This document shows positions 3,300-51,571 of a stretch of 64,000 nt of DNA, piece by piece. The stretch is from the NCBI GenBank assembly GCA_021800515.1, contig JAJYYU010000001.1:6975-70974 (forward strand), read 5' to 3'. A model generated the notes under the pieces. The model was not told where the DNA came from, ran no database searches, and saw nothing but the letters and a program-made list of their open reading frames with translations. Position 1 is the first letter of the stretch; each line of letters starts with the position of its first letter. Source of the DNA: Candidatus Micrarchaeota archaeon. Its GTDB lineage: Archaea > Micrarchaeota > Micrarchaeia > Micrarchaeales > Micrarchaeaceae. The position numbers and the translations under genes were made by a program.

Positions 3300-3502
3300 T
3301 ATGAGGTTTTGTGCAGTGCGTAAAGCTCAGATAGATATAATCTTTTTTTATATTTTGGGAAAATGTTTAAAGGCAAGGATGAGCTATAGAAATGCTATCT
3401 TGAAATCCTAAGGTCATTGAAGTATTAGCAATTAAATGCAATCTATTTAAACTTTTAAGAGAAATACCATTTTATATTTTTTATAAATTTAATGGTGATA
3501 GT

Positions 3503-15994: not shown

Positions 15995-16177
15995 GTAAGC
16001 ACCGTATAGTTATAATCAACTATAACTATAAATATTTGCAACAAATTTATTTAATTTTATTGTAAACAAAAGTTACTATTATTAATTAAGCAGCAATTAT
16101 TCAGCAATCTATTATACTTTTTATTTTTGAAATACTAATTTTACAGATCTTATTACAGTTTACTAAACTAGGATTTT

Positions 16178-17176
16178 ATGCGAAATAATAATATAGAGTC
16201 AGAGTATCTTGCGAGACTCGCACCCATATTTCAGCATGAATTCATAAAACAACTTAAGCATTCTGGTTGTGCATACAGAAAACTAAATAAGTATTATTTT
16301 TTAATTTCTTCTAAAAGACCTATAAAATCTATATTTTTGCATTCAATATTTAAGGTAAAAATGAAATTTGAAGTTTCAGGTTTTACTAAAAAGAGAATCG
16401 ATGACTTATCAGGGTTGATGCAGGATTTTGTTAAAAAGTCAATAAACAAAAAAACGCCTTTCAAGATAAATTGTAATATATCTGGAATACAAACATTTAA
16501 CACAGATACAATTGGCATGAATGCTAAAGATATAGAGGTTATGATAGGAACCAAGCTTGAATTGCAGGGATATAAAATTGATTTGCTAAAACCTAAATAT
16601 ATTTTTATTTTAGATATATTTAATACAGTTATTATTGCGGGCAAGGTTGACTTAAAAAATCCTGCAGCAATAAATATCATTGAAAAGCCTGATGATATAA
16701 GCAGAGCTCAGTTGAAATTAAGGGAGGCAATACTCTATTTTAAAATTGATCTGTCAAGCGTAAGAAATGCGCTTGATCTTGGTGCTGCGCCAGGCGGGTT
16801 CAGTAAAGAATTAAGCATGCATAGAATAAAGGTTATTGCAGTTGACACTGCAGATCTTGACAAAAGGCTTGAAAAAGATCGAAATATTACACATTTAAAA
16901 ATAAAAGCAGCTCAAATAAATTCAGATTATATATTTGACATGATTACAAATGATATGAATATAGACCCTGTTGAATCTGCACAAGTTATGTTAAACTTAA
17001 GTAATCACCTAAGCAGTAACGGGTTTGCAGTAATGACAATAAAATGCCCTTCAAAAAATGTATCAAATTATATAAAAAATACAAAAAAAATATTATCTGC
17101 AAAATATACTAGATTTAGGCTTCAGCACTTGCCGCATAACAGGATGGAAATTACTCTATTTATGCTGAAAAAATAA
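16178..17176 (+). CDS. FtsJ/RlmM-like SAM-dependent RNA methyltransferase
   Basis: 332 aa. SAM motif LDLGAAPGGFSKEL in the C-terminal half, preceded by a THUMP-like N-terminal region. Confidence 0.65.
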   Translation: MRNNNIESEYLARLAPIFQHEFIKQLKHSGCAYRKLNKYYFLISSKRPIKSIFLHSIFKVKMKFEVSGFTKKRIDDLSGLMQDFVKKSINKKTPFKINCNISGIQTFNTDTIGMNAKDIEVMIGTKLELQGYKIDLLKPKYIFILDIFNTVIIAGKVDLKNPAAINIIEKPDDISRAQLKLREAILYFKIDLSSVRNALDLGAAPGGFSKELSMHRIKVIAVDTADLDKRLEKDRNITHLKIKAAQINSDYIFDMITNDMNIDPVESAQVMLNLSNHLSSNGFAVMTIKCPSKNVSNYIKNTKKILSAKYTRFRLQHLPHNRMEITLFMLKK

Positions 17177-23492: not shown

Positions 23493-23604
23493 AGCCCTGA
23501 ATGGGAATTGAACCCACAACCTCTTGTTTTCCTGTTTCTTGATTAAACTTCTTTTTAAGAAGTTTATTTACAAGACAAGCGCTCTGCCGTTGAGCTACCA
23601 GGGC
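23493..23604 (-). tRNA. tRNA-Thr(UGU) with a ~40-nt intron at 37/38
   Basis: Hand-folded from the reverse complement. Acceptor GCCCTGG/TCAGGGC, D arm GCTC-AACGGCA-GAGC, anticodon stem CTTGT/ACAAG, loop CUUGUA|intron|A, T arm GTGGG-TTCAATT-CCCAT, discriminator U. Confidence 0.85.
23534..23566 (-). repeat. type I hairpin unit inside the tRNA-Thr intron
   Basis: In tRNA sense it reads TAAACTTCTTAAAAAGAAGTTTAATCAAGAAAC. It is 29/33 identical to intergenic 43025..43057 and has a 9-bp stem AAACTTCTT/AAGAAGTTT. Confidence 0.8.
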
Positions 23605-35362: not shown

Positions 35363-35401
35363 AAGCAAGGATTAAAAATGAAAAATACAATATATAATAA
35401 G

Positions 35402-35458
35402 AATTTTTAAAGAAGTTTCATCAAAAGAAACTTTTAGGAAAAGTTTCATCAAAAGAAA
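35402..35458 (+). repeat. tandem hairpin-element dimer (degenerate type I + type II)
   Basis: AATTTTTAAAGAAGTTTCATCAAAAGAAACTTTTAGGAAAAGTTTCATCAAAAGAAA. Positions 35425..35455 are 29/31 identical to the tRNA-Ala intron, with a perfect 9-bp stem GAAACTTTT/AAAAGTTTC. Begins 40 nt after the giant-gene stop. Confidence 0.8.
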
Positions 35459-43024: not shown

Positions 43025-43088
43025 TAAACTTCTTAGGAAGAAGTTCAATCAAGAAAGAAACTTTTAAGAAAAGTTTCATCAAAAGAAA
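43025..43088 (+). repeat. tandem hairpin-element dimer (type I + type II)
   Basis: TAAACTTCTTAGGAAGAAGTTCAATCAAGAAAGAAACTTTTAAGAAAAGTTTCATCAAAAGAAA. The first unit is 29/33 identical to the tRNA-Thr intron unit. The second unit (43055..43085) is 28/31 identical to the tRNA-Ala intron. Confidence 0.85.
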
Positions 43089-43905: not shown

Positions 43906-44009
43906 TGGGCTCGTGGCTCAGTAGTGGAGCGCCTGCTTTGCAAAGAAACTTTTAGAAAAAGTTTCATCAAAACAGCAGGAGGCCGCGGGTGCGATTCCCG
44001 CCGAGTCCA
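43906..44009 (+). tRNA. tRNA-Ala(UGC) with a 31-nt intron at 37/38
   Basis: Hand-folded. Acceptor GGGCTCG/CGAGTCC includes the G3:U70 alanine identity pair. D arm GCTC-AGTAGTG-GAGC, anticodon stem CCTGC/GCAGG, loop UUUGCA|intron|A, T arm GCGGG-TGCGATT-CCCGC, discriminator A. Confidence 0.88.
43943..43973 (+). repeat. type II hairpin unit, equal to the tRNA-Ala intron
   Basis: AAGAAACTTTTAGAAAAAGTTTCATCAAAAC with a 9-bp stem GAAACTTTT/AAAAGTTTC. Near-identical copies lie at 35425..35455 and 43055..43085. Confidence 0.85.
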
Positions 44010-44023
44010 TACCTTGCTTAAAG

Positions 44024-44932
44024 TTAACTTGGTAAAGGCAGAGTATATTGTGAGAGCAATTGATTAGCTAAGAAAATAGCAAAAGGTTTCTGGTCTCCTT
44101 TATCTGCAGCTTCTATTGCGTTGTAATATTGTTCCTTGTTGGAAACCTCAATTATCACAGGGGGAAACTTATTTCTAAGCAATACCCAGTTCATAAGCAA
44201 TCTCGCCGTTCTCCCATTACCGTCTGTAAATGGATGTATGTTGACAAACCTATTATGTAAAAACGTAGAAAGCTCTATCGGATGCAATATCTTCCTTTCT
44301 GAATAAAATTCTGCAAATAGCTTTTCGATCAGTTTTGTAACATCTGCTGATTTTGGCGGAACATGCTCGGAACCAGATATCCTCACTTCATTATCCCTGT
44401 AATTCCCCTGTATTCTACAGGAAGTATTTTTTGTTATTTCATACTGTATATTGCATACATACTTTTTATTTAATTTATTTTTGTAGGATTTAGCAAAATT
44501 CCACGCATCAACTGCATTAAGAGCTTCAATCACATCATCTGCGCGAGTACCTTCAGGGGCTATCCTATCGCTAAGCACCAATGCCGTCTGTCTGAGCGTT
44601 AAACGATTGCCTTCTATTGCGTTGGTGTTGTATGTATACCTTACCATGAAGTCTTTTGGCAACACGTTTGTCAGTGTTTTATGAAACACAGTTATGGAAG
44701 CACTTAGGTCATCAACTTTTTCTACAAGTTCCTTTGGCAACCACCTAGTTTGGTACTGCTCCATGGCCTTTTTCTCTAACTCTACGAAGTATTTTTGCAA
44801 TTCTTTTTGCTTCGGTATTTTCCTACCTAAGAAGATTCTAAGCTTTTTCAATTTAGTCGGTGTTATCCTAATGTTCTTAACCAAGTAAAAGTAGAAATGC
44901 CCGCCATGTTTCTGTTTTTCTATAAATGACAT
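44024..44932 (-). CDS. Fic/DOC family protein
   Basis: 302 aa. Active-site motif HPFTDGNGRTARLLMN and an upstream inhibitory-helix-like motif TNAIEGN ((S/T)xxxE(G/N)). Confidence 0.88.
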   Translation of the reverse strand: MSFIEKQKHGGHFYFYLVKNIRITPTKLKKLRIFLGRKIPKQKELQKYFVELEKKAMEQYQTRWLPKELVEKVDDLSASITVFHKTLTNVLPKDFMVRYTYNTNAIEGNRLTLRQTALVLSDRIAPEGTRADDVIEALNAVDAWNFAKSYKNKLNKKYVCNIQYEITKNTSCRIQGNYRDNEVRISGSEHVPPKSADVTKLIEKLFAEFYSERKILHPIELSTFLHNRFVNIHPFTDGNGRTARLLMNWVLLRNKFPPVIIEVSNKEQYYNAIEAADKGDQKPFAIFLANQLLSQYTLPLPS

Positions 44933-44944
44933 GATATGTCTATG

Positions 44945-45000
44945 TTATATAGATATTTAAATATTGTGGACATAATGTCTACATTTATATAGATATTTAA
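44945..45000. promoter_or_regulatory. direct repeats flanking an imperfect palindrome upstream of the Fic gene
   Basis: Perfect 16-nt repeat TTATATAGATATTTAA at 44945..44960 and 44985..45000. Between them lies the near-palindrome TGTGGACATAATGTCTACA (44965..44983). The region sits 13-70 nt upstream of the Fic start. Confidence 0.3.
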
Positions 45001-45220
45001 TTATGTAGCCATACAGTTTTAAAGGTGCTGGCCACAACATATCATCGCGTATATGACAATGTGTTTTCGTCACGTTACTTGAAGGGTATGTATCGTCGAA
45101 TCCGCAAAATGCTTTGGGAAAGAATTTTATCAGAAAAGTCTTGGAAACAGGAAAGACAAAACTAGCAAATGCCACCAAGTCTAAAGTTTATAGAGATTAA
45201 TTTATTTCTTTTTGGTGGAG

Positions 45221-45916
45221 CTAAGAAACAGCCTGGCCATTTTGGCCTGTCCAGTAATAAGTCAATGTTTGTTTTATTGTTTTAGCTACATTATATTTAT
45301 TGTGGGTATAAAAGAGTATTATTATGTCGTTCCCTTTAAAGAAATTGCCTCTTGGCGGTGCGTAAGATTCTGAATTTAGATATTTAAGAATCTTTGCCTG
45401 TTTTTTATGACCATATAATGTCTTTGTTAGATAGGAAACGGCAAAAAACATTGCCGTGGTCTCGAATATATTATTCACCAGGTCTTGGATCTGATTTTTA
45501 GTTAATTTAAAACATTCTAATTTGCTCCAAAGTATGCTAGGGTCGTAAAATTTAATTCTCGTATGCTGGGCATGATGGAAAAAAGCATGGGAAAGTAATC
45601 CTTTATAAGTCAACTTTTGTTGTTGCCTTTGATTATAGGATTTAAGATAATTTGGATTTATTGATATTGTATTTTCCCAATATTCTTTAACATCTTTTAG
45701 ATTATAAGAAATTTTTAATTCAGGAAGATCCAATTCTATATCTGTCATACTTGTAAAGAAATCTCTTATATTTGGCAATTCCCTCTCTAATGAAGCCTTA
45801 TTTATCATACTAATTACCATACACTTTGCATAAAATGATTTGGTTGCAGCTTGCAATACCTTTATAATATTTCTTGCCTGCAATTCTTTATATGTTTCAT
45901 TAACCACTGTTGGCAA
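45221..45916 (-). CDS. hypothetical protein
   Basis: 231 aa from a TTG start (first ATG at 45820). No motif recognised. Same strand as the Fic gene. Confidence 0.45.
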   Translation of the reverse strand: MPTVVNETYKELQARNIIKVLQAATKSFYAKCMVISMINKASLERELPNIRDFFTSMTDIELDLPELKISYNLKDVKEYWENTISINPNYLKSYNQRQQQKLTYKGLLSHAFFHHAQHTRIKFYDPSILWSKLECFKLTKNQIQDLVNNIFETTAMFFAVSYLTKTLYGHKKQAKILKYLNSESYAPPRGNFFKGNDIIILFYTHNKYNVAKTIKQTLTYYWTGQNGQAVS

Positions 45917-46129
45917 TTGGTATTAATCCATATATTTATAGCGTTATAATATTTATGAACCTTCAAAACAAATACTTTCAATGCATTTGCCTGCCTTTGC
46001 TGGAGGAGTTAAATTATTATAAAACACTATAATTAGATATTCAAATTCTACGACGTTAAAAACGAAATAAAAACGAACGAATTAAATATCTATTTTAATA
46101 TATAGCTACTAAGGTATAGCGGTGATAGA

Positions 46130-46402
46130 ATGAACAGAATAAGAATGACGGCAATGGTTGCCGCAGTACTGACAATAGTCGGTATGGTAGGTATAGTTGG
46201 TGCGCAAAGCAGCACAACGCACGCGCCATTAGTAGGGGCGTCAACGCTCTCCAACATACCGAACGGTGCGAACGTACAAAGCAATGTACAAAGTGGACTG
46301 AACGTACAAAGCAATGTACAAAGCGGACTGAACGTTCAGCAAGTTGGCAGGGACTCCGACACGGCAAAAGCTGTGCAAGCAGGAGCTGAAATTGACAACT
46401 GA
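46130..46402 (+). CDS. small secreted/membrane protein with tandem NVQSNVQSGL repeats
   Basis: 90 aa. Hydrophobic N-terminus MTAMVAAVLTIVGMVGIVGA, repeat NVQSNVQSGL x2 plus a partial unit, and GC-rich codon usage unlike the flanks. Confidence 0.5.
   Translation: MNRIRMTAMVAAVLTIVGMVGIVGAQSSTTHAPLVGASTLSNIPNGANVQSNVQSGLNVQSNVQSGLNVQQVGRDSDTAKAVQAGAEIDN
46270..46339 (+). repeat. 30-nt tandem repeat, 2.3 copies, in frame
   Basis: GAACGTACAAAGCAATGTACAAAGTGGACT / GAACGTACAAAGCAATGTACAAAGCGGACT / GAACGTTCAG. Confidence 0.85.
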
Positions 46403-46429
46403 TGGAAGAAGGAGTCAGGCACTGGCCTG

Positions 46430-46449
46430 CCCGCCAATTCTTTGGCGGG
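46430..46449 (+). terminator. GC-rich hairpin after the repeat-protein gene
   Basis: CCCGCCAA-TTCT-TTGGCGGG, an 8-bp perfect stem 28 nt after the stop at 46402. No T-run follows, so function is uncertain. Confidence 0.3.
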
Positions 46450-46494
46450 GTCAGTGCAGAAGCAAGATTTTAGAATCATATAAAGGTTGAATTT

Positions 46495-46731
46495 ATGCGG
46501 CAAAGAGCGGCGAAACCATTGACGATTGTAGTTTTTGGGCTAATGTTAGTAGCTGGTGTTACTATGTTGGTCTTTGGATATGGGAATATCAACCGCAATG
46601 GACTGATCCATGCCTTAGAAATGAAAGAGGTTATTTTCCTGTTCGGTATATATGTACTGTTAATCTGGGCGCTGCTGGTCTATGCCGCGCTGTTCAGGAA
46701 GGAAAAGCCAGAGCTTAAAATAAAACGGTGA
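46495..46731 (+). CDS. small two-TM membrane protein
   Basis: 78 aa with two hydrophobic helices (LTIVVFGLMLVAGVTMLVF and VIFLFGIYVLLIWALLVYAAL). Its stop overlaps the next ORF. Confidence 0.5.
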   Translation: MRQRAAKPLTIVVFGLMLVAGVTMLVFGYGNINRNGLIHALEMKEVIFLFGIYVLLIWALLVYAALFRKEKPELKIKR

Positions 46732-46736
46732 AATTA

Positions 46737-47603
46737 ATGAGCAAGACATGGCACACAAAAAAGAGAATACTCAAAATTCTTTCGAAGCAGGCGCGCACGC
46801 CAGGAGAGATAGGTAAACTCCTGGAGTTGTCGCCATCCACCGTGAGTGTGCATATTGCTGAACTTGAAGGAATGGGCGCGATAGAAAGAGTAGAGAACAA
46901 TTATGTCAAACGGTGGAAATATTATCGCATAAAGCAGGGATTCGACATTGAAAAGGCCATTCGCGTCAAGGAAGTCAACATTATACCTCTTATACTGATG
47001 GGCGTTGCCATAGTTGCATTCATTGGCGTTGGTGTATTCATCGGCTTGGTGCAGCACAGAGGGCAGGTGGCAACTACTTTAACAATCCAACTGACAGATC
47101 CGCCGAATGTGCCCAATGGCACGCAAGGTTTGTTGGTGTCATATTCTTCTATCCAGGTTCGCATGCGGGGTTCATCAGGATGGATTACTGATAATACCAC
47201 AGGCATAGTAAACTTGATGTCACTGGCAAATGTAAGTGAGGTGGTAGGAAAGCTCAAAGTGCCGGTGAATGCCAGTGTTGGCGTGATCAGATTCAATATA
47301 ACTTCCGCTAGGATACTTATAGGCAACAAGACCTATAATGTAGACGTACTTAATCATCAGCTAAACGCCAATGTTATTGGTAGTGGCGTGTCTGGCAACA
47401 TATCCGTACTTATGGATATGAACACCAAGATCGCTGTCGCACCGAATGAGACTTACATGCTTGTAACTTCGCTTAAAGCCGTCGCTGTAAACAACATTGA
47501 TGCAAATGAACAGATAGGCTCGACAAACCAGCTTAATAGGAGTGTAAAGAATAAGCTAAATCAAATAGGCGGCGGCAATAATATTACAAGCAGCGGCTCA
47601 TAA
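46737..47603 (+). CDS. winged-HTH (ArsR-like) - TM - extracytoplasmic domain protein
   Basis: N-terminal KKRILKILSKQARTPGEIGKLLELSPSTVSVHIAELEGMGAIERV, then TM IIPLILMGVAIVAFIGVGVFIGLV. The following domain begins LTIQLTDPPNVPNG, possibly DUF4382-like. ORF is open from GTG 46728. Confidence 0.6.
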   Translation: MSKTWHTKKRILKILSKQARTPGEIGKLLELSPSTVSVHIAELEGMGAIERVENNYVKRWKYYRIKQGFDIEKAIRVKEVNIIPLILMGVAIVAFIGVGVFIGLVQHRGQVATTLTIQLTDPPNVPNGTQGLLVSYSSIQVRMRGSSGWITDNTTGIVNLMSLANVSEVVGKLKVPVNASVGVIRFNITSARILIGNKTYNVDVLNHQLNANVIGSGVSGNISVLMDMNTKIAVAPNETYMLVTSLKAVAVNNIDANEQIGSTNQLNRSVKNKLNQIGGGNNITSSGS

Positions 47604-47620
47604 TATAAGTTGCTTGGAGA

Positions 47621-47647
47621 CGCGGGTGCGAATCCCGCCGAGTCCAT
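47621..47647 (+). repeat. orphan copy of the tRNA-Ala 3' end (att-like)
   Basis: CGCGGGTGCGAATCCCGCCGAGTCCAT versus CGCGGGTGCGATTCCCGCCGAGTCCAT at 43984..44010. One mismatch, same orientation. Confidence 0.85.
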
Positions 47648-47739
47648 TTTATGTTTATGGGGGAGGGGAGTATGGGTCGTCGTATGCTTGAATAGTAAAT
47701 ATTAAATATGTTTATTCACATAATAATTATGTGATTTAT

Positions 47740-47982
47740 ATGCCAAATATCACTCTTTCAATAAGTGAGGAGTTGAAAAAAGAGATGGAGAAGTACTCTT
47801 CAGTCAAATGGTCAAGTGCAGTAAGAAATGTAATAGAACAGAAAATTGCAGATTTTGAGGAAGCTGAGAGCATAGCTAAGAAGAGTAGGCTTAATTGGAA
47901 GACCTGGAAGTTAATAAGTGCGAAAATTTCAAAGAACGCTGCAAAACATGCAGAGGCGCTTCTCAATGAGAGTAACAGTTGA
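47740..47982 (+). CDS. ribbon-helix-helix type antitoxin (VapB-like)
   Basis: About 80 aa. N-terminal MPNITLSISEELKKEMEKY fits a beta-strand plus helix RHH pattern. Overlaps the downstream PIN gene by 17 nt. Confidence 0.55.
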   Translation: MPNITLSISEELKKEMEKYSSVKWSSAVRNVIEQKIADFEEAESIAKKSRLNWKTWKLISAKISKNAAKHAEALLNESNS

Positions 47983-48379
47983 TGCAAATGTACTGTTTGC
48001 ATGCCTCATAAAGGATTCAACAACAAGAAGAATGTTCTTTAATCCTGCGTTGTCACTTTTTGCACCAGAATTCATTGTTGATGAATTTGCACGTTACCTT
48101 GTTGAAGTAAGAAAAAAATCAGGACTGAGTGATGAAGAACTCTATCAATTAGTTGACAAGGTTCTTGGTCAGCTTGTGCTTGTGCCAGACAAGAATCTTA
48201 AACCTTTCCTTCCAGCTGCAGCAAGCATCGTAGAGGATCCAAAGGACTGGCTATATATCTCGTGTGCACTCTATGAAAATACAATTATATGGAGCCATGA
48301 TCGGGATTTCGGCACACAAAAAAGGATACGAATTATTTCCACGAAGGAACTAATAGGTATTATAGGTTCGCTAAGTTAA
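47966..48379 (+). CDS. PIN-domain protein (VapC-like toxin)
   Basis: MRVTVDANVLFACL... with later conserved acidic positions (FIVDEF, SHDRDF). About 137 aa from the internal Met of ORF 47918..48379. Confidence 0.65.
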   Translation: MRVTVDANVLFACLIKDSTTRRMFFNPALSLFAPEFIVDEFARYLVEVRKKSGLSDEELYQLVDKVLGQLVLVPDKNLKPFLPAAASIVEDPKDWLYISCALYENTIIWSHDRDFGTQKRIRIISTKELIGIIGSLS

Positions 48380-48882
48380 TTTATTTAATTACTTAATGAC
48401 AAAAGCTATCAAATACTGTTATTTGCTGTTGTTTGTACATCACACTTAACAACTGATTCCTATAGAGCCCATACATACTCTATAAAAGTAGGATTTGGAT
48501 TTATACCCTAGTTCTGTCTTTTCTGTATTATTTTTCTGTATTATAATTTTAGTTCTTTGTTTTTCTATATTCTTTTATAGACAATATCAAGCGATTTTTA
48601 TTGGGATCCTCAGAGTTACATTGATCATCAAATGAGCAGGTATCAGTATTCGCTTCTTAAAAAGGCTAAGAGCATCATCTTTACGCATAGCAAAAGTTTG
48701 CGGGTTTATATAATGAGATATTCATCCCAAATGATAGATGGTATGTATTTTGCTTTGGGAGTTAGTGGCAGAGAAAGAGATGAAGGAAAAATTGCTTTTG
48801 AATGCAGTTGTTTAGCTCCTCAGGTTTACTGTACAAAATATTTAAATATGTAGACTAACATAAAAAAATATAGGGTGATGAT

Positions 48883-49224
48883 GTGGATAAATATTATAAA
48901 GAGTATAAAAAGTGGATAAACTTGGCGACGGCAGAACAGACAAAAAATACTAAGCAACTTGAATATTTATTGGCAAATGGGGATCCAGTTACAAAAGTAG
49001 TAGCTATGTTTAATCCGACAATAGGCAAAATTACAGGCGATAAACTCGCAGAATTAAAGAATGACAAGAATCCATTTGTAAGTTTCGCTGCAGATTATAT
49101 TGAAAAAGAGCAGCTATTAAGACTTAATGCATATAGCATAGACTCTATCGCAGACAAAAAGATAGAAGAGGAAAAACAAAATAAAATGAACTATAAAAAA
49201 TTCATTCGCGTTTCAATCAACTAA
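48883..49224 (+). CDS. hypothetical protein
   Basis: 113 aa with a GTG start. No family recognised. Confidence 0.35.
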   Translation: MDKYYKEYKKWINLATAEQTKNTKQLEYLLANGDPVTKVVAMFNPTIGKITGDKLAELKNDKNPFVSFAADYIEKEQLLRLNAYSIDSIADKKIEEEKQNKMNYKKFIRVSIN

Positions 49225-49233
49225 GATGATAAA

Positions 49234-49488
49234 ATGACTGAATTTTGTAAAAAAGATAAAGTAACAGGGGAACTCAAAAATAGTTCAGTAAGCTTAAATA
49301 CTGCTTACTCCTTGAAGAAAGAATTTGAAATGGATAAAATCAAAGTAAGTTTTGCAAATAAAGGTAAATTAGATAAGGACACGTCAAAAAAATTGTTCAA
49401 TGCTTTCCTGCGAGGATATTGCGGGAATGAGAATTATGAAGATGTTTCATTGCTTAGTGACAATAAAGAAGAATCAAAAAAAGATTGA
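49234..49488 (+). CDS. hypothetical protein
   Basis: 84 aa. Starts 9 nt after the preceding ORF. No family recognised. Confidence 0.35.
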   Translation: MTEFCKKDKVTGELKNSSVSLNTAYSLKKEFEMDKIKVSFANKGKLDKDTSKKLFNAFLRGYCGNENYEDVSLLSDNKEESKKD

Positions 49489-49679
49489 GATCAGGCTATA
49501 ACAAGGAATTTATAGCAAACACGACTATAATAACACTATTATCATTTGATAATAAACTGCTATTTTGCTTTTCAGTGCTGCTATAATTGGCAGGCATCCA
49601 TGCTAGTGCTTTGAATTTTATTACCTGTATTAAATTTCTATTCTGCAACAATTAACAAATATGGCGAAGGTTGTTCTAT

Positions 49680-50207
49680 ATGCCTGCAAAACAAAATACT
49701 ATTTTTACAATAGGCTATTCTACTCGCAGCATAAGGCAATTTATTGAGATGCTAAAGGCAAATTCCGTAACAATGCTTGTCGATGTGAGATCTATACCAA
49801 AATCAAGGCATCAGCCTGATTTTAACCAGCTAAATCTTGAAAAGAGTTTAAAAAAAGAGGGCATAAAATATTTGCATGCTGAGGACCTTGGAGGGCTCCG
49901 CAAGCCAAAAGCTAATTCAATAAATACTGCATGGATAAATAAAAGTTTCAGAGGGTTTGCAGATTATATGCAGACTCGGAAGTTTGCTAGTGCAGTCTTA
50001 AGGCTAATTGGTTTGAGTAAAACTGAAAAAGTTGCCATTATGTGCGCAGAGGGGAATCCATTCAGATGCCATAGATCATTAATAGCAGATTCCTTGCTTG
50101 CAAGGGGCATTGAGGTATATGATATTTCAGGTCTGAATTCCCTTCATATGCATAAATTGACTAACTTTGCAAAGGTTTATAGGAAAAAGATAACATATCC
50201 GTCTTAA
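49680..50207 (+). CDS. DUF488 family protein (second, longer paralogue)
   Basis: IFTIGYSTRSIRQFIEMLKANSVTMLVDVRSIPKSR...VAIMCAEGNPFRCHRSLIAD matches the DUF488 pattern. ORF is open from TTG 49671. Confidence 0.7.
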   Translation: MPAKQNTIFTIGYSTRSIRQFIEMLKANSVTMLVDVRSIPKSRHQPDFNQLNLEKSLKKEGIKYLHAEDLGGLRKPKANSINTAWINKSFRGFADYMQTRKFASAVLRLIGLSKTEKVAIMCAEGNPFRCHRSLIADSLLARGIEVYDISGLNSLHMHKLTNFAKVYRKKITYPS

Positions 50208-50551
50208 TAAATGGGCTTTATCTCTTATACTCTTTTATTTTTTATTCATGTTTTATTTATGTACTGTTTATGCTTATACTGTGGCAGTCATAATTTAAAT
50301 TACTGCTAATTAATGCAAATGCTTAAAAATATTATTGCAAAATATAGTTTAATTTTAAACTATATTAATTTTAAACTAATGTTTTAAATTTAAATATTTT
50401 AATTTTATTTATTAATTTAAATTTTAATTTAATTTTAAATATTTAAAATTTAATTTTAGATTAATATTTCATTTATTCATTTAGATTATTCCATTTAAAT
50501 TAACATTTAAAACCTCTAATCAATCAATCAATTTTAAGCAGGCATGCGCTT

Positions 50552-51571
50552 ATGCATTTTGGCACTGGTTTTTCTATGGACGAAGCAATAAAAGTTAATA
50601 GTCTTGTAATGCAGTTCGGTAAATTTAGGGCAGTGGACGGAATTTCATTTAGTGTGAACAAAGGGGAGATTTTCGGACTTCTTGGCCCAAATGGTGCAGG
50701 CAAAACAACGACGATAAAAATGCTGACAACTCTGCTTAAGCCTACCTCTGGAAATGCATATGTTGCAGGATTTGACATAGTCCGTGACTCTAATAATGTG
50801 CGCAAGAATATAGGCATAGTTTTTCAGGACCCTTCTCTGGATGACGAGCTTACAGGGAGGGAGAATCTTGATTTCCATGCAATCCTTTATAATATAGAAA
50901 AGAACCAGAGGGATAAAAAGATATCCCAGATACTTAAGCTGATAGAGTTAGAAGACAAGGCAGATGATCTTGTAAAGAATTATTCCGGCGGCATGAAGCG
51001 CAGGCTTGAAATAGGGAGAGGTCTGATACATGAACCAAAGGTGCTGTTTCTTGATGAGCCTACTATAGGCCTTGATGCCCAGACAAGGCGGCACATATGG
51101 GATTATATAAAGAAACTCAACAGCGTGCATAAAATAACTATAATACTTACAACACATTACATTGAGGAAGCTGACTACCTTGCTGATAGGGTCGCATTTG
51201 TAGACCACGGAAAAATAGTCGCGCTTGATACCCCAAGAGCGCTTAAAGATAAGCTTGGAGGCGATATAATTTCTATGCAGGTCCAAACAGGGTTAGCTTC
51301 GCTTGAAAAAGGCCTTAAGCCACTAAAATGGATAAAGGCAGCATCAACACATGACGGACGCATAGATCTTACTGTTGATGAAGGCGAGCACCAGATACCG
51401 CGATTAATACTGATTGCAGAAAAACACAATGCAACAATTAGTTCTATAGAGCTGCACAAACCAAGCCTTGAGGATGTATTCCTGCATTATACAGGCAAAA
51501 ACATACGCGATGAAGAAGGGGAGGGATGGAAAGGCAGAATCCGTGCAATGCATGCAAAAAGGAATAGATAA
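50552..51571 (+). CDS. ABC transporter ATP-binding protein (ABC-2/DrrA-like)
   Basis: Walker A GPNGAGKTT, signature YSGGMKRRL, Walker B VLFLDEPTIGLD. The start may be the internal Met at 50576. Confidence 0.9.
   Translation: MHFGTGFSMDEAIKVNSLVMQFGKFRAVDGISFSVNKGEIFGLLGPNGAGKTTTIKMLTTLLKPTSGNAYVAGFDIVRDSNNVRKNIGIVFQDPSLDDELTGRENLDFHAILYNIEKNQRDKKISQILKLIELEDKADDLVKNYSGGMKRRLEIGRGLIHEPKVLFLDEPTIGLDAQTRRHIWDYIKKLNSVHKITIILTTHYIEEADYLADRVAFVDHGKIVALDTPRALKDKLGGDIISMQVQTGLASLEKGLKPLKWIKAASTHDGRIDLTVDEGEHQIPRLILIAEKHNATISSIELHKPSLEDVFLHYTGKNIRDEEGEGWKGRIRAMHAKRNR

What the first reader, a model, noticed from the sequence alone, without database searches (positions are those of the whole stretch)
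43984..47647. A 3.6-kb island bounded by a 27-nt direct repeat of the tRNA-Ala 3' end, with no recognisable integrase
Seen directly: CGCGGGTGCGATTCCCGCCGAGTCCAT (43984..44010, the 3' end of the intact tRNA-Ala) recurs as CGCGGGTGCGAATCCCGCCGAGTCCAT at 47621..47647. The copies share orientation and are 26/27 identical. Established: an intact tRNA plus a displaced 3' fragment is the classic footprint of site-specific integration of a plasmid or virus into a tRNA gene. The interval holds a Fic gene, a 231-aa orphan and a GC-rich three-gene block. I could find no tyrosine or serine recombinase motif in any ORF. Inference: it may be a decayed element, an element mobilised in trans, or one using an unrecognised recombinase. 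The 231-aa orphan at 45221..45916 is the only unassigned cytoplasmic ORF of suitable size.
Basis: partly seen in the sequence, partly recalled or inferred. Interest (0 to 1): 0.7.

Follow-up and report, generated by a model that had tools for sequence, protein, structure and literature searches.

The report
Integrase-less island at tRNA-Ala hotspot
A 3.6-kb block of defence-type genes in a tiny acid-mine archaeon (Micrarchaeota) lies between a tRNA-Ala gene and a copied tRNA tail; this is a real integration scar at a site that split-gene integrases of neighbouring elements use, but the island has no integrase and its orphan protein looks like a zinc protease, not a new recombinase.

Summary
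CGCGGGTGCGATTCCCGCCGAGTCCAT (43984-44010) is the 3' end of an intron-containing tRNA-Ala(UGC). It recurs 26/27 at 47621-47647, and nowhere else in the window.

The host is a Candidatus Micrarchaeota (DPANN) archaeon. In near-identical strains, homology breaks exactly at both repeat copies, and at least four different gene sets follow the tRNA.

Related species, and three conspecific assemblies, carry a tyrosine integrase whose gene contains the att site and is split on integration ("suicidal" layout). In those three assemblies its N-terminal half plus att sits directly left of this island.

The island itself has no integrase and no vestige of one. The 231-aa orphan is zincin-like, not a recombinase.

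The distal copy is identical to the 3' end of a second gene, tRNA-Ala(CGC). The island's GC-rich half plus this copy also occurs, 100% identical, at that other tRNA in contigs that probably belong to another genome.

Best reading: a non-autonomous, att-flanked cargo island (SoFic-like Fic, zincin-like partner, membrane HTH trio) in a tandem array. It was inserted, and may still be movable, by integrase supplied in trans. This is a known kind of element in a new host lineage.

The parts
43907..44009 (+). tRNA-Ala(UGC), intron 43943-43973. This is the attB-bearing gene, conserved about 0.5 kb downstream of the beta-CASP RNase gene across Micrarchaeota.
   Evidence: Rfam 55 bits. ARAGORN with intron option. 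A tRNA-Ala gene lies downstream of the beta-CASP gene in 37 of 61 related loci.
43984..44010 (+). Proximal att copy (T-arm to 3' end plus 1 nt), T-loop variant GATTCCC.
   Evidence: Homology of strains L001-L005 and L009 to the window ends at 44010/44011.
44011..44030 (+). Left end of the island. It resembles native tRNA-Ala trailers of related genomes.
   Evidence: Alignment A4. The same junction follows Int(N)+att in L114, L116 and L117.
44024..44932 (-). Class II Fic protein: HPFTDGNGRTAR active-site motif and a TNAIEG inhibitory motif. It resembles the SoFic defence protein.
   Evidence: Pfam Fic 5.5e-21. PADLOC PDC-S04 1e-34 and SoFic 1.3e-26. Motifs read directly from the translation. 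A 70%-identical homologue sits in the same position in L042.
44968..44977 (.). 10-bp target site occupied in other strains by an IS5-family IS (328-aa transposase plus DUF2080).
45221..45916 (-). Zincin-like orphan (probably starts at 45907). The motif is HAFFHH, with the catalytic E replaced by A.
   Evidence: 13 representatives in 1.84 billion proteins. Alignment A1. Weak DUF5700, eCIS_core and Zn_peptidase hits in homologues. AlphaFold2 model pLDDT 88. Foldseek found no recombinase.
46005..47620 (+). Module B, GC 0.43. It holds a 90-aa signal-anchored repeat protein (46130-46402), a 78-aa two-TM protein (46495-46731), and a 288/291-aa ArsR-type HTH with a TM segment and an extracellular domain (46728/46737-47603).
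   Evidence: The stretch 46038-47649 is 100% identical in L128 at another locus.
47621..47647 (+). Distal att copy (att'), T-loop variant GAATCCC. Its first 26 nt are identical to the 3' end of tRNA-Ala(CGC).
47648..47687 (+). Displaced ancestral tRNA-Ala trailer, where the constant right flank starts.
   Evidence: L012, L013, L014 and L016 join other left-hand content to this flank exactly at the att copy. It is homologous to the trailers of L002, L157 and L160.
47740..48379 (+). RHH_12 antitoxin (47740-47982) and PIN_2 toxin (47966-48379). This neighbouring module is itself mobile.
   Evidence: It is 80-86% identical right after tRNA-Ala in L063, where beta-CASP is only 58% identical, and is followed there by an Int(N) remnant.

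Best explanation
The two 27-nt copies are the attL and attR of site-specific recombination at tRNA-Ala(UGC). In Micrarchaeota this gene is a hot spot for small integrative elements. Their tyrosine integrase gene carries the att site inside its own 5' coding region, so integration splits it: Int(C) is left next to the tRNA, and the promoter plus Int(N) are left next to the displaced tRNA fragment.

The 3.6 kb between the copies is a non-autonomous cargo segment that encodes no integrase. It is a mosaic. The AT-rich half holds Fic and the zincin-like protein. The GC-rich half holds the membrane/HTH trio. Its left end looks like a tRNA-Ala trailer. Its att' is the tRNA-Ala(CGC) version of the site.

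The most likely history is as follows. DNA lying between two att copies in a donor genome was excised as a circle and inserted into this tRNA by an integrase supplied in trans. The crossover fell between the T-loop and the 3' end. Newer integrase-bearing elements then insert at the intact tRNA and push the island distally, building a tandem array.

Shown here: the repeat, the breakpoints, the polymorphism, the integrase family and its split layout in relatives, and its presence beside this island in conspecific strains. Inferred: supply of integrase in trans, the circular intermediate, and the position of the crossover.
For: 1. Homology of six near-identical strain contigs stops at 44010/44011. 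At least four different contents follow the tRNA: DpnI, DnaJ-like small ORFs, a RelE/YoeB-like toxin-antitoxin pair, and Fic.
2. The right flank is constant. In L012, L013, L014 and L016 it starts exactly at an att copy with different DNA to its left.
3. In L040, L059 and L039 an ORF that starts in the tRNA-Ala T-arm is a tyrosine recombinase (PF00589, 34.5 bits against a cut-off of 27.1). There are 354 homologue clusters, some named 'site-specific integrase [Ca. Micrarchaeales]'.
4. Int(N) plus att lies at the distal copies in L040 (twice), L038, L063 and L150, and in the conspecific L013.
5. A conserved SGSGC peptide lies between att and the catalytic domain. Four of the six homologues that read through the att have no start codon between the att and this peptide, and nor does the L040 ORF, so the ORF must run through the att.
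6. In L114, L116 and L117 (three samples), Int(N)+att directly precedes the island's left end.
7. L150 is a complete 3.3-kb element whose identity block is only about 29 nt, comparable to the 27 nt here.
8. att' equals the 3' 26 nt of tRNA-Ala(CGC). Module B plus att' is joined to that gene's native flank in three assemblies, while the look-up grouped 17 of the 24 contigs read into one arrangement; in each of the five loci examined (L133-L136, L139) an intact tRNA-Ala(CGC) abuts that flank, i.e. the site is empty.
9. Both post-att sequences resemble native tRNA-Ala trailers.
10. The window arrangement recurs 100% identical in independent assemblies L015 and L111.
Against: 1. I found no exact empty site (tRNA-Ala(UGC) directly followed by 47648 onward) and no circular junction. 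I looked in about 60 conspecific contigs and in a JGI metagenome scan.
2. The island ends carry no significant Int(C) or Int(N) vestige, so no integrase is tied to this particular insertion.
3. The single mismatch lies in the T-loop, which may be the overlap region.
4. In conspecific strains the integrase-linked att block reaches the anticodon arm (about 50 nt), whereas the island's block is 27 nt.
5. Module B is a 1.6-kb exact repeat shared by two contexts. Some mixed contigs (L130, L131) could therefore be assembly chimeras.
6. No unsplit integrase gene was seen among the 120 best homologues.
Confidence: 0.6

Rival explanations
1. Decayed autonomous element. The island once carried its own split integrase, with Int(C) after the tRNA and Int(N) before att'. 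Deletions removed both halves and kept only 'sticky' cargo such as toxin-like and defence genes. This is classic gene capture.
For: Other integrase-less islets at this site do keep vestiges. L063 has an Int(C) 5' remnant, RHH-PIN and Int(N). L040 element 2 has a truncated Int(C), an AAA ATPase and Int(N). In L003 a toxin-antitoxin islet follows a decayed Int(C) 5' hairpin. A 9-mer, GCTTGGAGA, directly precedes att' here and also precedes the att region in the L013 Int(N).
Against: No alignment of either island end to the Int(C) 5' or Int(N) regions beats shuffles; all give p > 0.05, and the 9-mer gives p = 0.18. The left end looks like a tRNA trailer rather than an integrase 5' end. Two clean deletions ending exactly at both att cores would be required.
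Confidence: 0.2
2. No integrase was involved. Ordinary homologous recombination or rearrangement between the near-identical 3' ends of two tRNA-Ala genes (UGC and CGC), or exchange between strains, moved module B plus the CGC-type fragment next to this tRNA.
For: att' is identical to the tRNA-Ala(CGC) 3' end, and module B plus att' sits at that gene's flank in other contigs. Large IS-mediated inversions occur in this population (L110).
Against: At the CGC locus too, module B is followed by a 26-nt fragment rather than a whole tRNA, so that locus is also an insertion. At least four unrelated contents share the same two precise breakpoints. A 26-nt identity is short for homologous recombination. 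A cognate integrase is demonstrably working at this very site.
Confidence: 0.12
3. The island encodes a new kind of recombinase, with the 231-aa orphan as the candidate, and moves itself.
For: The protein had no family assignment and is cytoplasmic. It is always linked to the island.
Against: The family signature is H-[EAGS]-F-F-H-H..Q plus E-S-x-A-M-F-F-A. Three homologues hit zinc-peptidase families (best 4e-5). The confident model (pLDDT 88) has a helix, three-strand sheet and active-site-helix layout, and its weak Foldseek hits are minigluzincins, M1 peptidases, BlaR1 and IrrE. No recombinase, nuclease or HTH signal was found. The closest homologue sits among housekeeping genes in L033. 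Module B moves without it in L128.
Confidence: 0.02
4. The repeat is a chance match, a generic repeat or an assembly artefact.
For: The same 26-nt sequence occurs in many tRNA-Ala genes and in tmRNA-like 3' ends elsewhere.
Against: Zero matches are expected by chance in the window. Independent assemblies from other samples reproduce both junctions at 100% identity (L015, L111).
Confidence: 0.01

Closest known systems
Integrase-less remnants at archaeal tRNA genes ('gene capture' after integration by type I / SSV-type integrases in Sulfolobus; She et al. 2001, from my own knowledge; summarised in PMC8371274)
   Same: An intact tRNA plus a displaced 3' fragment in direct orientation. Foreign cargo lies between them. 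There is no working integrase. The integrase family acting at the site splits its own gene on integration.
   Different: [quoted passage not shown] Its distal copy matches a different isoacceptor gene. The host is an acidophilic DPANN archaeon, not a hyperthermophile.
CIMEs (cis-mobilisable elements) and tandem accretion at ICE attachment sites in Streptococcus (from my own knowledge)
   Same: A segment flanked by att sites with no recombination genes, sitting in tandem with an integrase-bearing element at the same att site. Mobilisation in trans is plausible.
   Different: The domain of life and the integrase type differ. Excision or co-transfer has not been shown here. The island's ends look like tRNA trailers rather than ICE ends.
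Suicidal integrases of SSV1, pTN3 and pT26-2 (PMC7253208, PMC8371274)
   Same: This comparison concerns the integrase seen in relatives. The att site lies inside the integrase ORF. Integration into a tRNA gene separates Int(N) from Int(C). No excisionase is evident. Related integrated copies are common.
   Different: The Micrarchaeota enzymes hit PF00589 only, not PF16795 (Phage_integr_3), which marks the known suicidal clade. Their best solved relative by sequence is XerA (4a8e, E = 4.5e-4). Only about 25-40 N-terminal codons are split off. The hosts are not hyperthermophiles.
Defence islands carrying SoFic-type Fic AMPylases and toxin-antitoxin modules
   Same: The cargo here and in alternative strains is Fic (PADLOC PDC-S04/SoFic), RHH-PIN, a RelE/YoeB-like pair, DpnI, AbiE and DUF488 (PDC-M45B).
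   Different: No phenotype has been tested. The zincin-like partner of Fic is not part of any described system.

Membership tests
tRNA-gene integration footprint (attL/attR) | Intact tRNA plus a displaced 3' fragment, same orientation, near-identical | tested here: met
   26/27 identical, same strand, 0 expected by chance.
tRNA-gene integration footprint (attL/attR) | The interval is variable or absent in close relatives, with breakpoints at the repeat copies | tested here: met
   Breaks fall at 44010/11 and 47621/2 in several strains. No exact empty site was recovered.
tRNA-gene integration footprint (attL/attR) | DNA beyond the distal copy is the original tRNA trailer | tested here: met
   47648-47687 is homologous to the tRNA-Ala trailers of L002, L157 and L160.
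Autonomous integrative element (plasmid or provirus) | Encodes its own integrase or recombinase | tested here: not met
   No hit in Pfam, PHROGs, NCBIfam or PADLOC for any island ORF. tblastn with the local Int(C) and Int(N) finds nothing in the window.
Autonomous integrative element (plasmid or provirus) | Replication, capsid or conjugation genes | tested here: not met
   The only hits are Fic and an ArsR-type HTH. The PHROG replication-initiator hits at E = 0.005-0.08 cover the HTH only.
Element captured after type I (gene-splitting) integration | int(C) abutting the tRNA and int(N) abutting the distal copy | tested here: not met
   No ORF reads through either copy. End alignments are not better than shuffles. 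The feature is met in relatives L040 and L150.
CIME-like, trans-mobilisable island | att sites at both ends and no recombination genes | tested here: met
CIME-like, trans-mobilisable island | A cognate integrase-bearing element co-resident at the same att site | tested here: met
   Int(N)+att lies immediately left of the island in L114, L116 and L117. This is not the case in the window's own strain.
CIME-like, trans-mobilisable island | Excision to a circle, or a second insertion site | tested here: inconclusive
   The same module B plus att' is found at tRNA-Ala(CGC), but a chimeric assembly is possible for L130 and L131. No circular junction was found.
SSV/pTN3/pT26-2 suicidal integrase clade (applies to the integrase of relatives) | att site inside the integrase ORF | tested here: met
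   L040 frames match across the att. A conserved SGSGC motif lies between att and the core. Four of the six homologues that read through the att, and the L040 ORF, have no start codon between the att and this motif. No unsplit copy was seen.
SSV/pTN3/pT26-2 suicidal integrase clade (applies to the integrase of relatives) | Phage_integr_3 (PF16795) catalytic domain, as stated in PMC8371274 | tested here: not met
   Only PF00589 at E <= 0.01. All 120 listed homologues but one carry PF00589, and none carries PF16795.
Fic AMPylase (class II) | HxFx(D/E)GNGRxxR motif and an N-terminal (S/T)xxxE(G/N) inhibitory motif | tested here: met
   HPFTDGNGRTAR and TNAIEG read in the translation. Pfam Fic 5.5e-21.
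Zincin metallopeptidase (231-aa orphan) | HExxH plus a downstream Glu ligand | tested here: inconclusive
   The window copy has HAFFH, so it lacks the catalytic E. Three homologues have HEFFH, and the downstream E is nearly invariant. Family hits are seen only in homologues (4e-5). Foldseek gives no match below E = 0.27.
Tyrosine or serine recombinase (231-aa orphan) | Catalytic R..HxxR..Y, or a serine-recombinase fold | tested here: not met
   There were no sequence, profile or fold matches.

The most novel reading that the evidence does not exclude
In this reading the tRNA-Ala genes of Micrarchaeota act as an integron-like platform. Short integrase-less cassettes are each bounded by a roughly 26-nt tRNA-Ala 3' fragment. 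Their cargo is toxin-antitoxin pairs, Fic, restriction enzymes and this 3.6-kb island. A PF00589-type gene-splitting integrase supplied in trans excises and reinserts them, moving them between the UGC and CGC isoacceptor genes and between different genomes. That integrase would be an origin of 'suicidal' integration independent of the hyperthermophile SSV clade. Its att-flanking hairpin would be the source of the host's tRNA introns.
Probability: 0.2. Interest if true: 0.75.

Novelty: new member of a known kind. Interest (0 to 1): 0.45.

Why it matters
As an object, the island is ordinary: a non-autonomous, att-flanked genomic island at a tRNA gene. Three things around it matter more.

1. It documents an active integration hot spot and a tandem array in Micrarchaeota. 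These DPANN archaea have tiny genomes, and their mobile elements are almost undescribed. The 2021 review of archaeal tyrosine recombinases (PMC8371274) does not mention DPANN, and my text searches found no report.

2. The integrase family working at the site splits its own gene, yet it lacks the Pfam domain that marks all known suicidal integrases. Those are described as restricted to hyperthermophiles with a single origin. That claim can now be tested directly.

3. The island carries a SoFic-like Fic with a conserved zincin-like neighbour, a candidate two-gene defence or toxin module.

The finding does not open the hoped-for route to a new recombinase class.

Tried and rejected
- The viral-contig scan with the att 25-mer hit only phage-borne tmRNA and tRNA 3' ends. 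It was uninformative.
- The JGI metagenome scan with the 27-mer found 21 loci. All are tRNA-Ala genes or att copies of other Micrarchaeota-like genomes, with no empty site and no circular junction.
- The single-sequence AlphaFold2 model of the orphan was useless (pLDDT 33). The model built from the alignment was good, but Foldseek against PDB gave nothing below E = 0.27.
- An SSV-type split integrase inside the island is rejected. No ORF crosses either copy, and there is no tblastn hit.
- An integrase elsewhere in the window was not found among the 30 ORFs scanned in the three window Pfam calls, 23 of them outside the island.
- The 259/262-aa ORF next to att' in L128 is not an integrase. It is a signal-anchored, Ser/Thr-rich protein.
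- I first read the L128-type flank as a plasmid attP. I dropped this once that flank proved to be the native trailer of a chromosomal tRNA-Ala(CGC) next to the CCA-adding enzyme, KH and Topo VI-B genes.
- The 9-mer GCTTGGAGA shared with the L013 Int(N) is not significant.
- The reciprocal junction for the L003 tRNA-Thr rearrangement was not found.

Full report
OBSERVATION. The 27-mer CGCGGGTGCGATTCCCGCCGAGTCCAT lies at 43984-44010. It recurs on the same strand at 47621-47647 with one change (T to A). These are the only two matches with up to three mismatches in the window, and none is expected by chance. The first copy is the 3' end of a tRNA: Rfam 43907-44009, 55 bits. ARAGORN with its intron option gives tRNA-Ala(tgc) with a 31-nt intron; the default run misses it. 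Fic is supported by Pfam at 5.5e-21. The 291-aa protein has an ArsR-type HTH. The 231-aa, 90-aa and 78-aa ORFs hit no family.

ORGANISM AND CONSERVATION OF THE SITE. The window encodes archaeal housekeeping genes: GatE, the PolD small subunit, a thermosome and PolX. The beta-CASP RNase just upstream of the tRNA finds 99-50% identical orthologues in about 60 genomes. Almost all are labelled Candidatus Micrarchaeota, and many come from acid-mine-drainage sediments. A tRNA-Ala gene lies downstream of the beta-CASP gene in 37 of 61 such loci, so the tRNA is native.

THE INTERVAL IS STRAIN-VARIABLE, WITH BREAKPOINTS AT THE REPEAT.
- Contigs that encode exactly the same beta-CASP protein (L001-L010) match the window up to 44010/44011 and then diverge.
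- What follows is a DpnI-type enzyme and a membrane protein in L001, L004 and L005, DnaJ-like small ORFs in L002, and a 620-bp antitoxin plus RelE/YoeB-like islet closed by another tRNA-Ala fragment in L003.
- On the other side, contigs with exactly the same PIN protein share the right flank. L012, L013, L014 and L016 join it to different left-hand DNA exactly at an att copy.
- In L012 that copy is a complete, divergent, intron-containing second tRNA-Ala. In L013 it is a roughly 50-nt intronless fragment. In L014 it is a 26-nt copy preceded by the same RelE-like gene as in L003.
- The 40 nt after att' (47648-47687) resemble the native trailers of tRNA-Ala genes in L002, L157 and L160. This is what a displaced original 3' end should look like.
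- The window's own arrangement is reproduced at 100% identity in independent assemblies (L015, L111).

THE RECOMBINASE THAT USES THIS SITE.
- In L040, a different Micrarchaeota species, an ORF starts inside the tRNA-Ala T-arm and runs into the downstream DNA. It is a tyrosine recombinase: PF00589 at 34.5 bits against a cut-off of 27.1, with HSLRH and a C-terminal Tyr. The same holds in L059 and L039.
- At the distal tRNA fragment in L040, a short ORF (...FENKIYGAKMEQ...) with a conserved upstream region reads through the fragment in the frame that continues into Int(C).
- The same Int(N)-att unit occurs in L040 (second element), L038, L063 and L150. It also occurs in L013, a strain of the window's own species, where it abuts the window's right flank.
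- Family members share a conserved SGSGC peptide between the att-encoded residues and the catalytic core. Four of the six homologues that read through the att have no start codon between the att and this peptide, and nor does the L040 ORF. Translation must therefore begin upstream of the att.
- The att site thus lies inside the integrase gene, and integration splits that gene. This is the type I or 'suicidal' layout reviewed in PMC8371274.
- L150 is a complete 3.3-kb example at a tRNA-Ala(CGC). Its identity block is only about 29 nt, from T-arm to 3' end, so a 27-nt block such as the window's is within the family's range.
- The family is large: 354 clusters, some named 'site-specific integrase [Ca. 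Micrarchaeales]'.
- It hits PF00589 and not PF16795. Its best solved relative by sequence is P. abyssi XerA (4a8e, E = 4.5e-4). By sequence it is therefore not a member of the SSV/pTN3/pT26-2 clade. The review describes that clade as the single origin of suicidal integrases, confined to hyperthermophiles.
- Caveat: no unsplit copy was seen among the 120 best homologues.

THE ISLAND IN THE TANDEM ARRAY. In L114, L116 and L117, from three samples, the island's left end (TACCTTGCTTAAAG... then Fic) is preceded by Int(N)+att rather than by the tRNA. In those strains an integrase-bearing element therefore sits between the tRNA and the island. This is the result expected if that element integrated into the tRNA of a window-like chromosome. 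It places a cognate integrase beside this island in this population.

WHAT THE ISLAND IS.
- It has no integrase and no vestige of one. tblastn with Int(C) and Int(N) finds nothing in the window. No ORF crosses either copy. Alignments of either end to the Int(C) 5' or Int(N) regions are no better than shuffles.
- It is a mosaic. 44011-46004 has GC 0.34 and 46005-47620 has GC 0.43, against 0.37 for the window.
- Fic has the HPFTDGNGRTAR active site and an N-terminal TNAIEG inhibitory motif. It matches PADLOC PDC-S04 (1e-34) and SoFic (1.3e-26). A 70%-identical Fic sits in the same place and orientation after tRNA-Ala in L042.
- The 231-aa orphan belongs to a family of only 13 representatives. 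Its signature is H-[EAGS]-F-F-H-H..Q and E-S-x-A-M-F-F-A. Three members hit zinc-peptidase families. The model built from the alignment is confident (pLDDT 88). It matches nothing significantly, and its weak hits are minigluzincins, M1 peptidases, BlaR1 and IrrE, never a recombinase. The window copy has HAFFH, so it may be catalytically inactive.
- Homologues of the HTH-membrane protein also lie downstream of tRNA-Ala in L045 and L057.

THE DISTAL COPY BELONGS TO ANOTHER tRNA.
- att' is identical over 26 nt to the 3' end of an intronless tRNA-Ala(CGC) (L133:4044-4115).
- The look-up grouped 17 of the 24 contigs read into one arrangement. In each of the five loci examined (L133-L136, L139) the intact tRNA-Ala(CGC) directly precedes a 259-aa protein, DUF1059, KH and Topo VI-B. 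That is an empty site.
- In L128, L130 and L131, module B, with or without module A, plus att' is joined to that same flank, and the break falls just after att'. Module B is 100% identical there.
- The tRNA-Ala(CGC) contigs have GC 0.41-0.43 and share no MAG accession with the window-type contigs. The 90% clusters of the window's GatE and PolX contain no protein of the MAG that holds this Topo VI-B. They are therefore probably a second, related genome.
- Either way, the same right end plus att' occurs at two different tRNA-Ala genes, as expected for site-specific insertion.
- The island's left end resembles native tRNA-Ala trailers (L150 host flank, L163, L169, L133). This suggests that the island began as DNA downstream of a tRNA-Ala gene, trapped between two att copies, rather than as a plasmid or virus.
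- Caveat: because module B is an exact 1.6-kb repeat, L130 and L131 could be chimeric. L128 has a non-window left side and is the safer witness.

MECHANISM AND CONFIDENCE. I put 0.6 on the island being a non-autonomous, att-flanked segment inserted by this integrase family acting in trans. The crossover would lie between the T-loop mismatch and the 3' end. I put 0.2 on a formerly autonomous element that lost both integrase halves, and 0.12 on integrase-independent recombination between the tRNA-Ala paralogues. A new recombinase (0.02) and an artefact (0.01) are essentially excluded. I could not find an exact empty site or a circular junction.

COMPARISON AND NOVELTY. The island behaves like captured elements at Sulfolobus tRNA genes and like streptococcal CIMEs. 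It fails the test for an autonomous element and for a captured type I element, because it has no integrase halves. It is a new member of a known kind. The wider setting is the more interesting part: a gene-splitting PF00589 integrase in non-thermophilic DPANN archaea, defence and toxin-antitoxin cassettes bounded by tRNA fragments, and intron-like att-flank hairpins. That setting is recorded under the novel case and the side observations.

Noticed in passing
window 43943-43973, 23528-23570(-), 43027-43083, 35400-35453; L150:142-186; L063:11999-12043; L012:403-445: The motif (T/A)AAACTTCTT-N3-AAGAAGTTT-ATCAAGAA appears in three settings. It forms the tRNA-Ala and tRNA-Thr introns. It occurs as four intergenic copies in the window. 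It also makes up the first ~35 nt of the integrase Int(C) coding region directly after the att core (IKLLGKKFYQE). The L150 Int(C) 5' end and the window's tRNA-Thr intron are about 85% identical over roughly 34 nt by eye in the A3 alignment. This fits the model that MGE att sites carry introns into tRNA genes (Sugahara 2012, cited in PMC8371274), but the direction of descent is unknown.
   Followed up: partly
L003:13022-14469 versus window 23555-22146: In one strain contig, a tRNA-Ala att copy plus the hairpin motif is fused to the intron 3' part and 3' exon of tRNA-Thr(UGU), followed by DUF4932. This implies a ~20-kb inversion that would split tRNA-Thr at its intron. The shared repeat is only ~40 nt, too short for a k=141 chimera. 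No reciprocal junction appeared in 10 contexts.
   Followed up: partly
L040:11856-12794, 16144-16356; L150:96-1079, 3406-3431; L013:82-290; L114, L116, L117: A large Micrarchaeota tyrosine-integrase family (354 clusters) has its att site inside the ORF and is split on integration into tRNA-Ala. It carries PF00589 rather than PF16795 and occurs in non-thermophiles. This is at odds with the published view that suicidal integrases are a single hyperthermophile clade.
   Followed up: partly
L114 (reverse of 2104-2370), L013:1-120, L116, L063:12940-13010, L044:11740-11796: Upstream of Int(N) lie one or two ~45-nt tandem units. Each is a hairpin, then A(A/C)CGAAAA, then CTGGGTGCG, a T-arm-like half-site. 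They may be integrase arm-type sites, iterons or stacked old att remnants.
   Followed up: no
window 44968-44977 and ~18377; L110:4661-5955; L113; L122: An IS5-family IS carries a 328-aa transposase and DUF2080, with TIR ...GGGACATAAGTCAG. In some strains it is inserted between Fic and the orphan, with a 10-bp duplication. In L110 a copy joins window 18377 to 44977 in inverted orientation, a ~26-kb inversion.
   Followed up: partly
window 47688-48379; L063:12143-12778; L054; L017: The RHH_12-PIN_2 toxin-antitoxin module just right of the island is itself mobile. It is 80-86% identical in L063, whose beta-CASP is 58% identical. There it lies between tRNA-Ala (with an Int(C) 5' remnant) and an Int(N) remnant. 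L017 has a different left neighbour, with homology starting at 47688.
   Followed up: partly
L012:367-480: One conspecific contig carries a second, complete and divergent tRNA-Ala(UGC). It has a different D-arm, a 42-nt intron and a TTCGAAT T-loop. It is preceded by GC-rich DNA encoding a KH protein and is fused to the window's right flank.
   Followed up: no
window 45221-45916; L033: The zincin-like orphan family has 13 representatives. Most members have lost the catalytic Glu (H-[AGS]-F-F-H) while three keep HEFFH. In the only other context seen, a 622-aa Fic protein lies within 2 kb, hinting at a Fic-zincin functional pair.
   Followed up: partly
window 48380-50550: The stretch between PIN and the ABC transporter holds two orphan ORFs (113 and 84 aa), a DUF488 protein matching PADLOC PDC-M45B (1.3e-35), and an extremely AT-rich palindromic spacer (GC 0.19 at 50200-50600). 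It may be an older layer of the same island, but no att copy was found there.
   Followed up: no
window 23493-23604 and 43907-44009: Both tRNAs in the window carry canonical-position introns. ARAGORN in default mode misses them (0 genes) and mis-assigns the first one when introns are allowed. Rfam finds both.
   Followed up: yes
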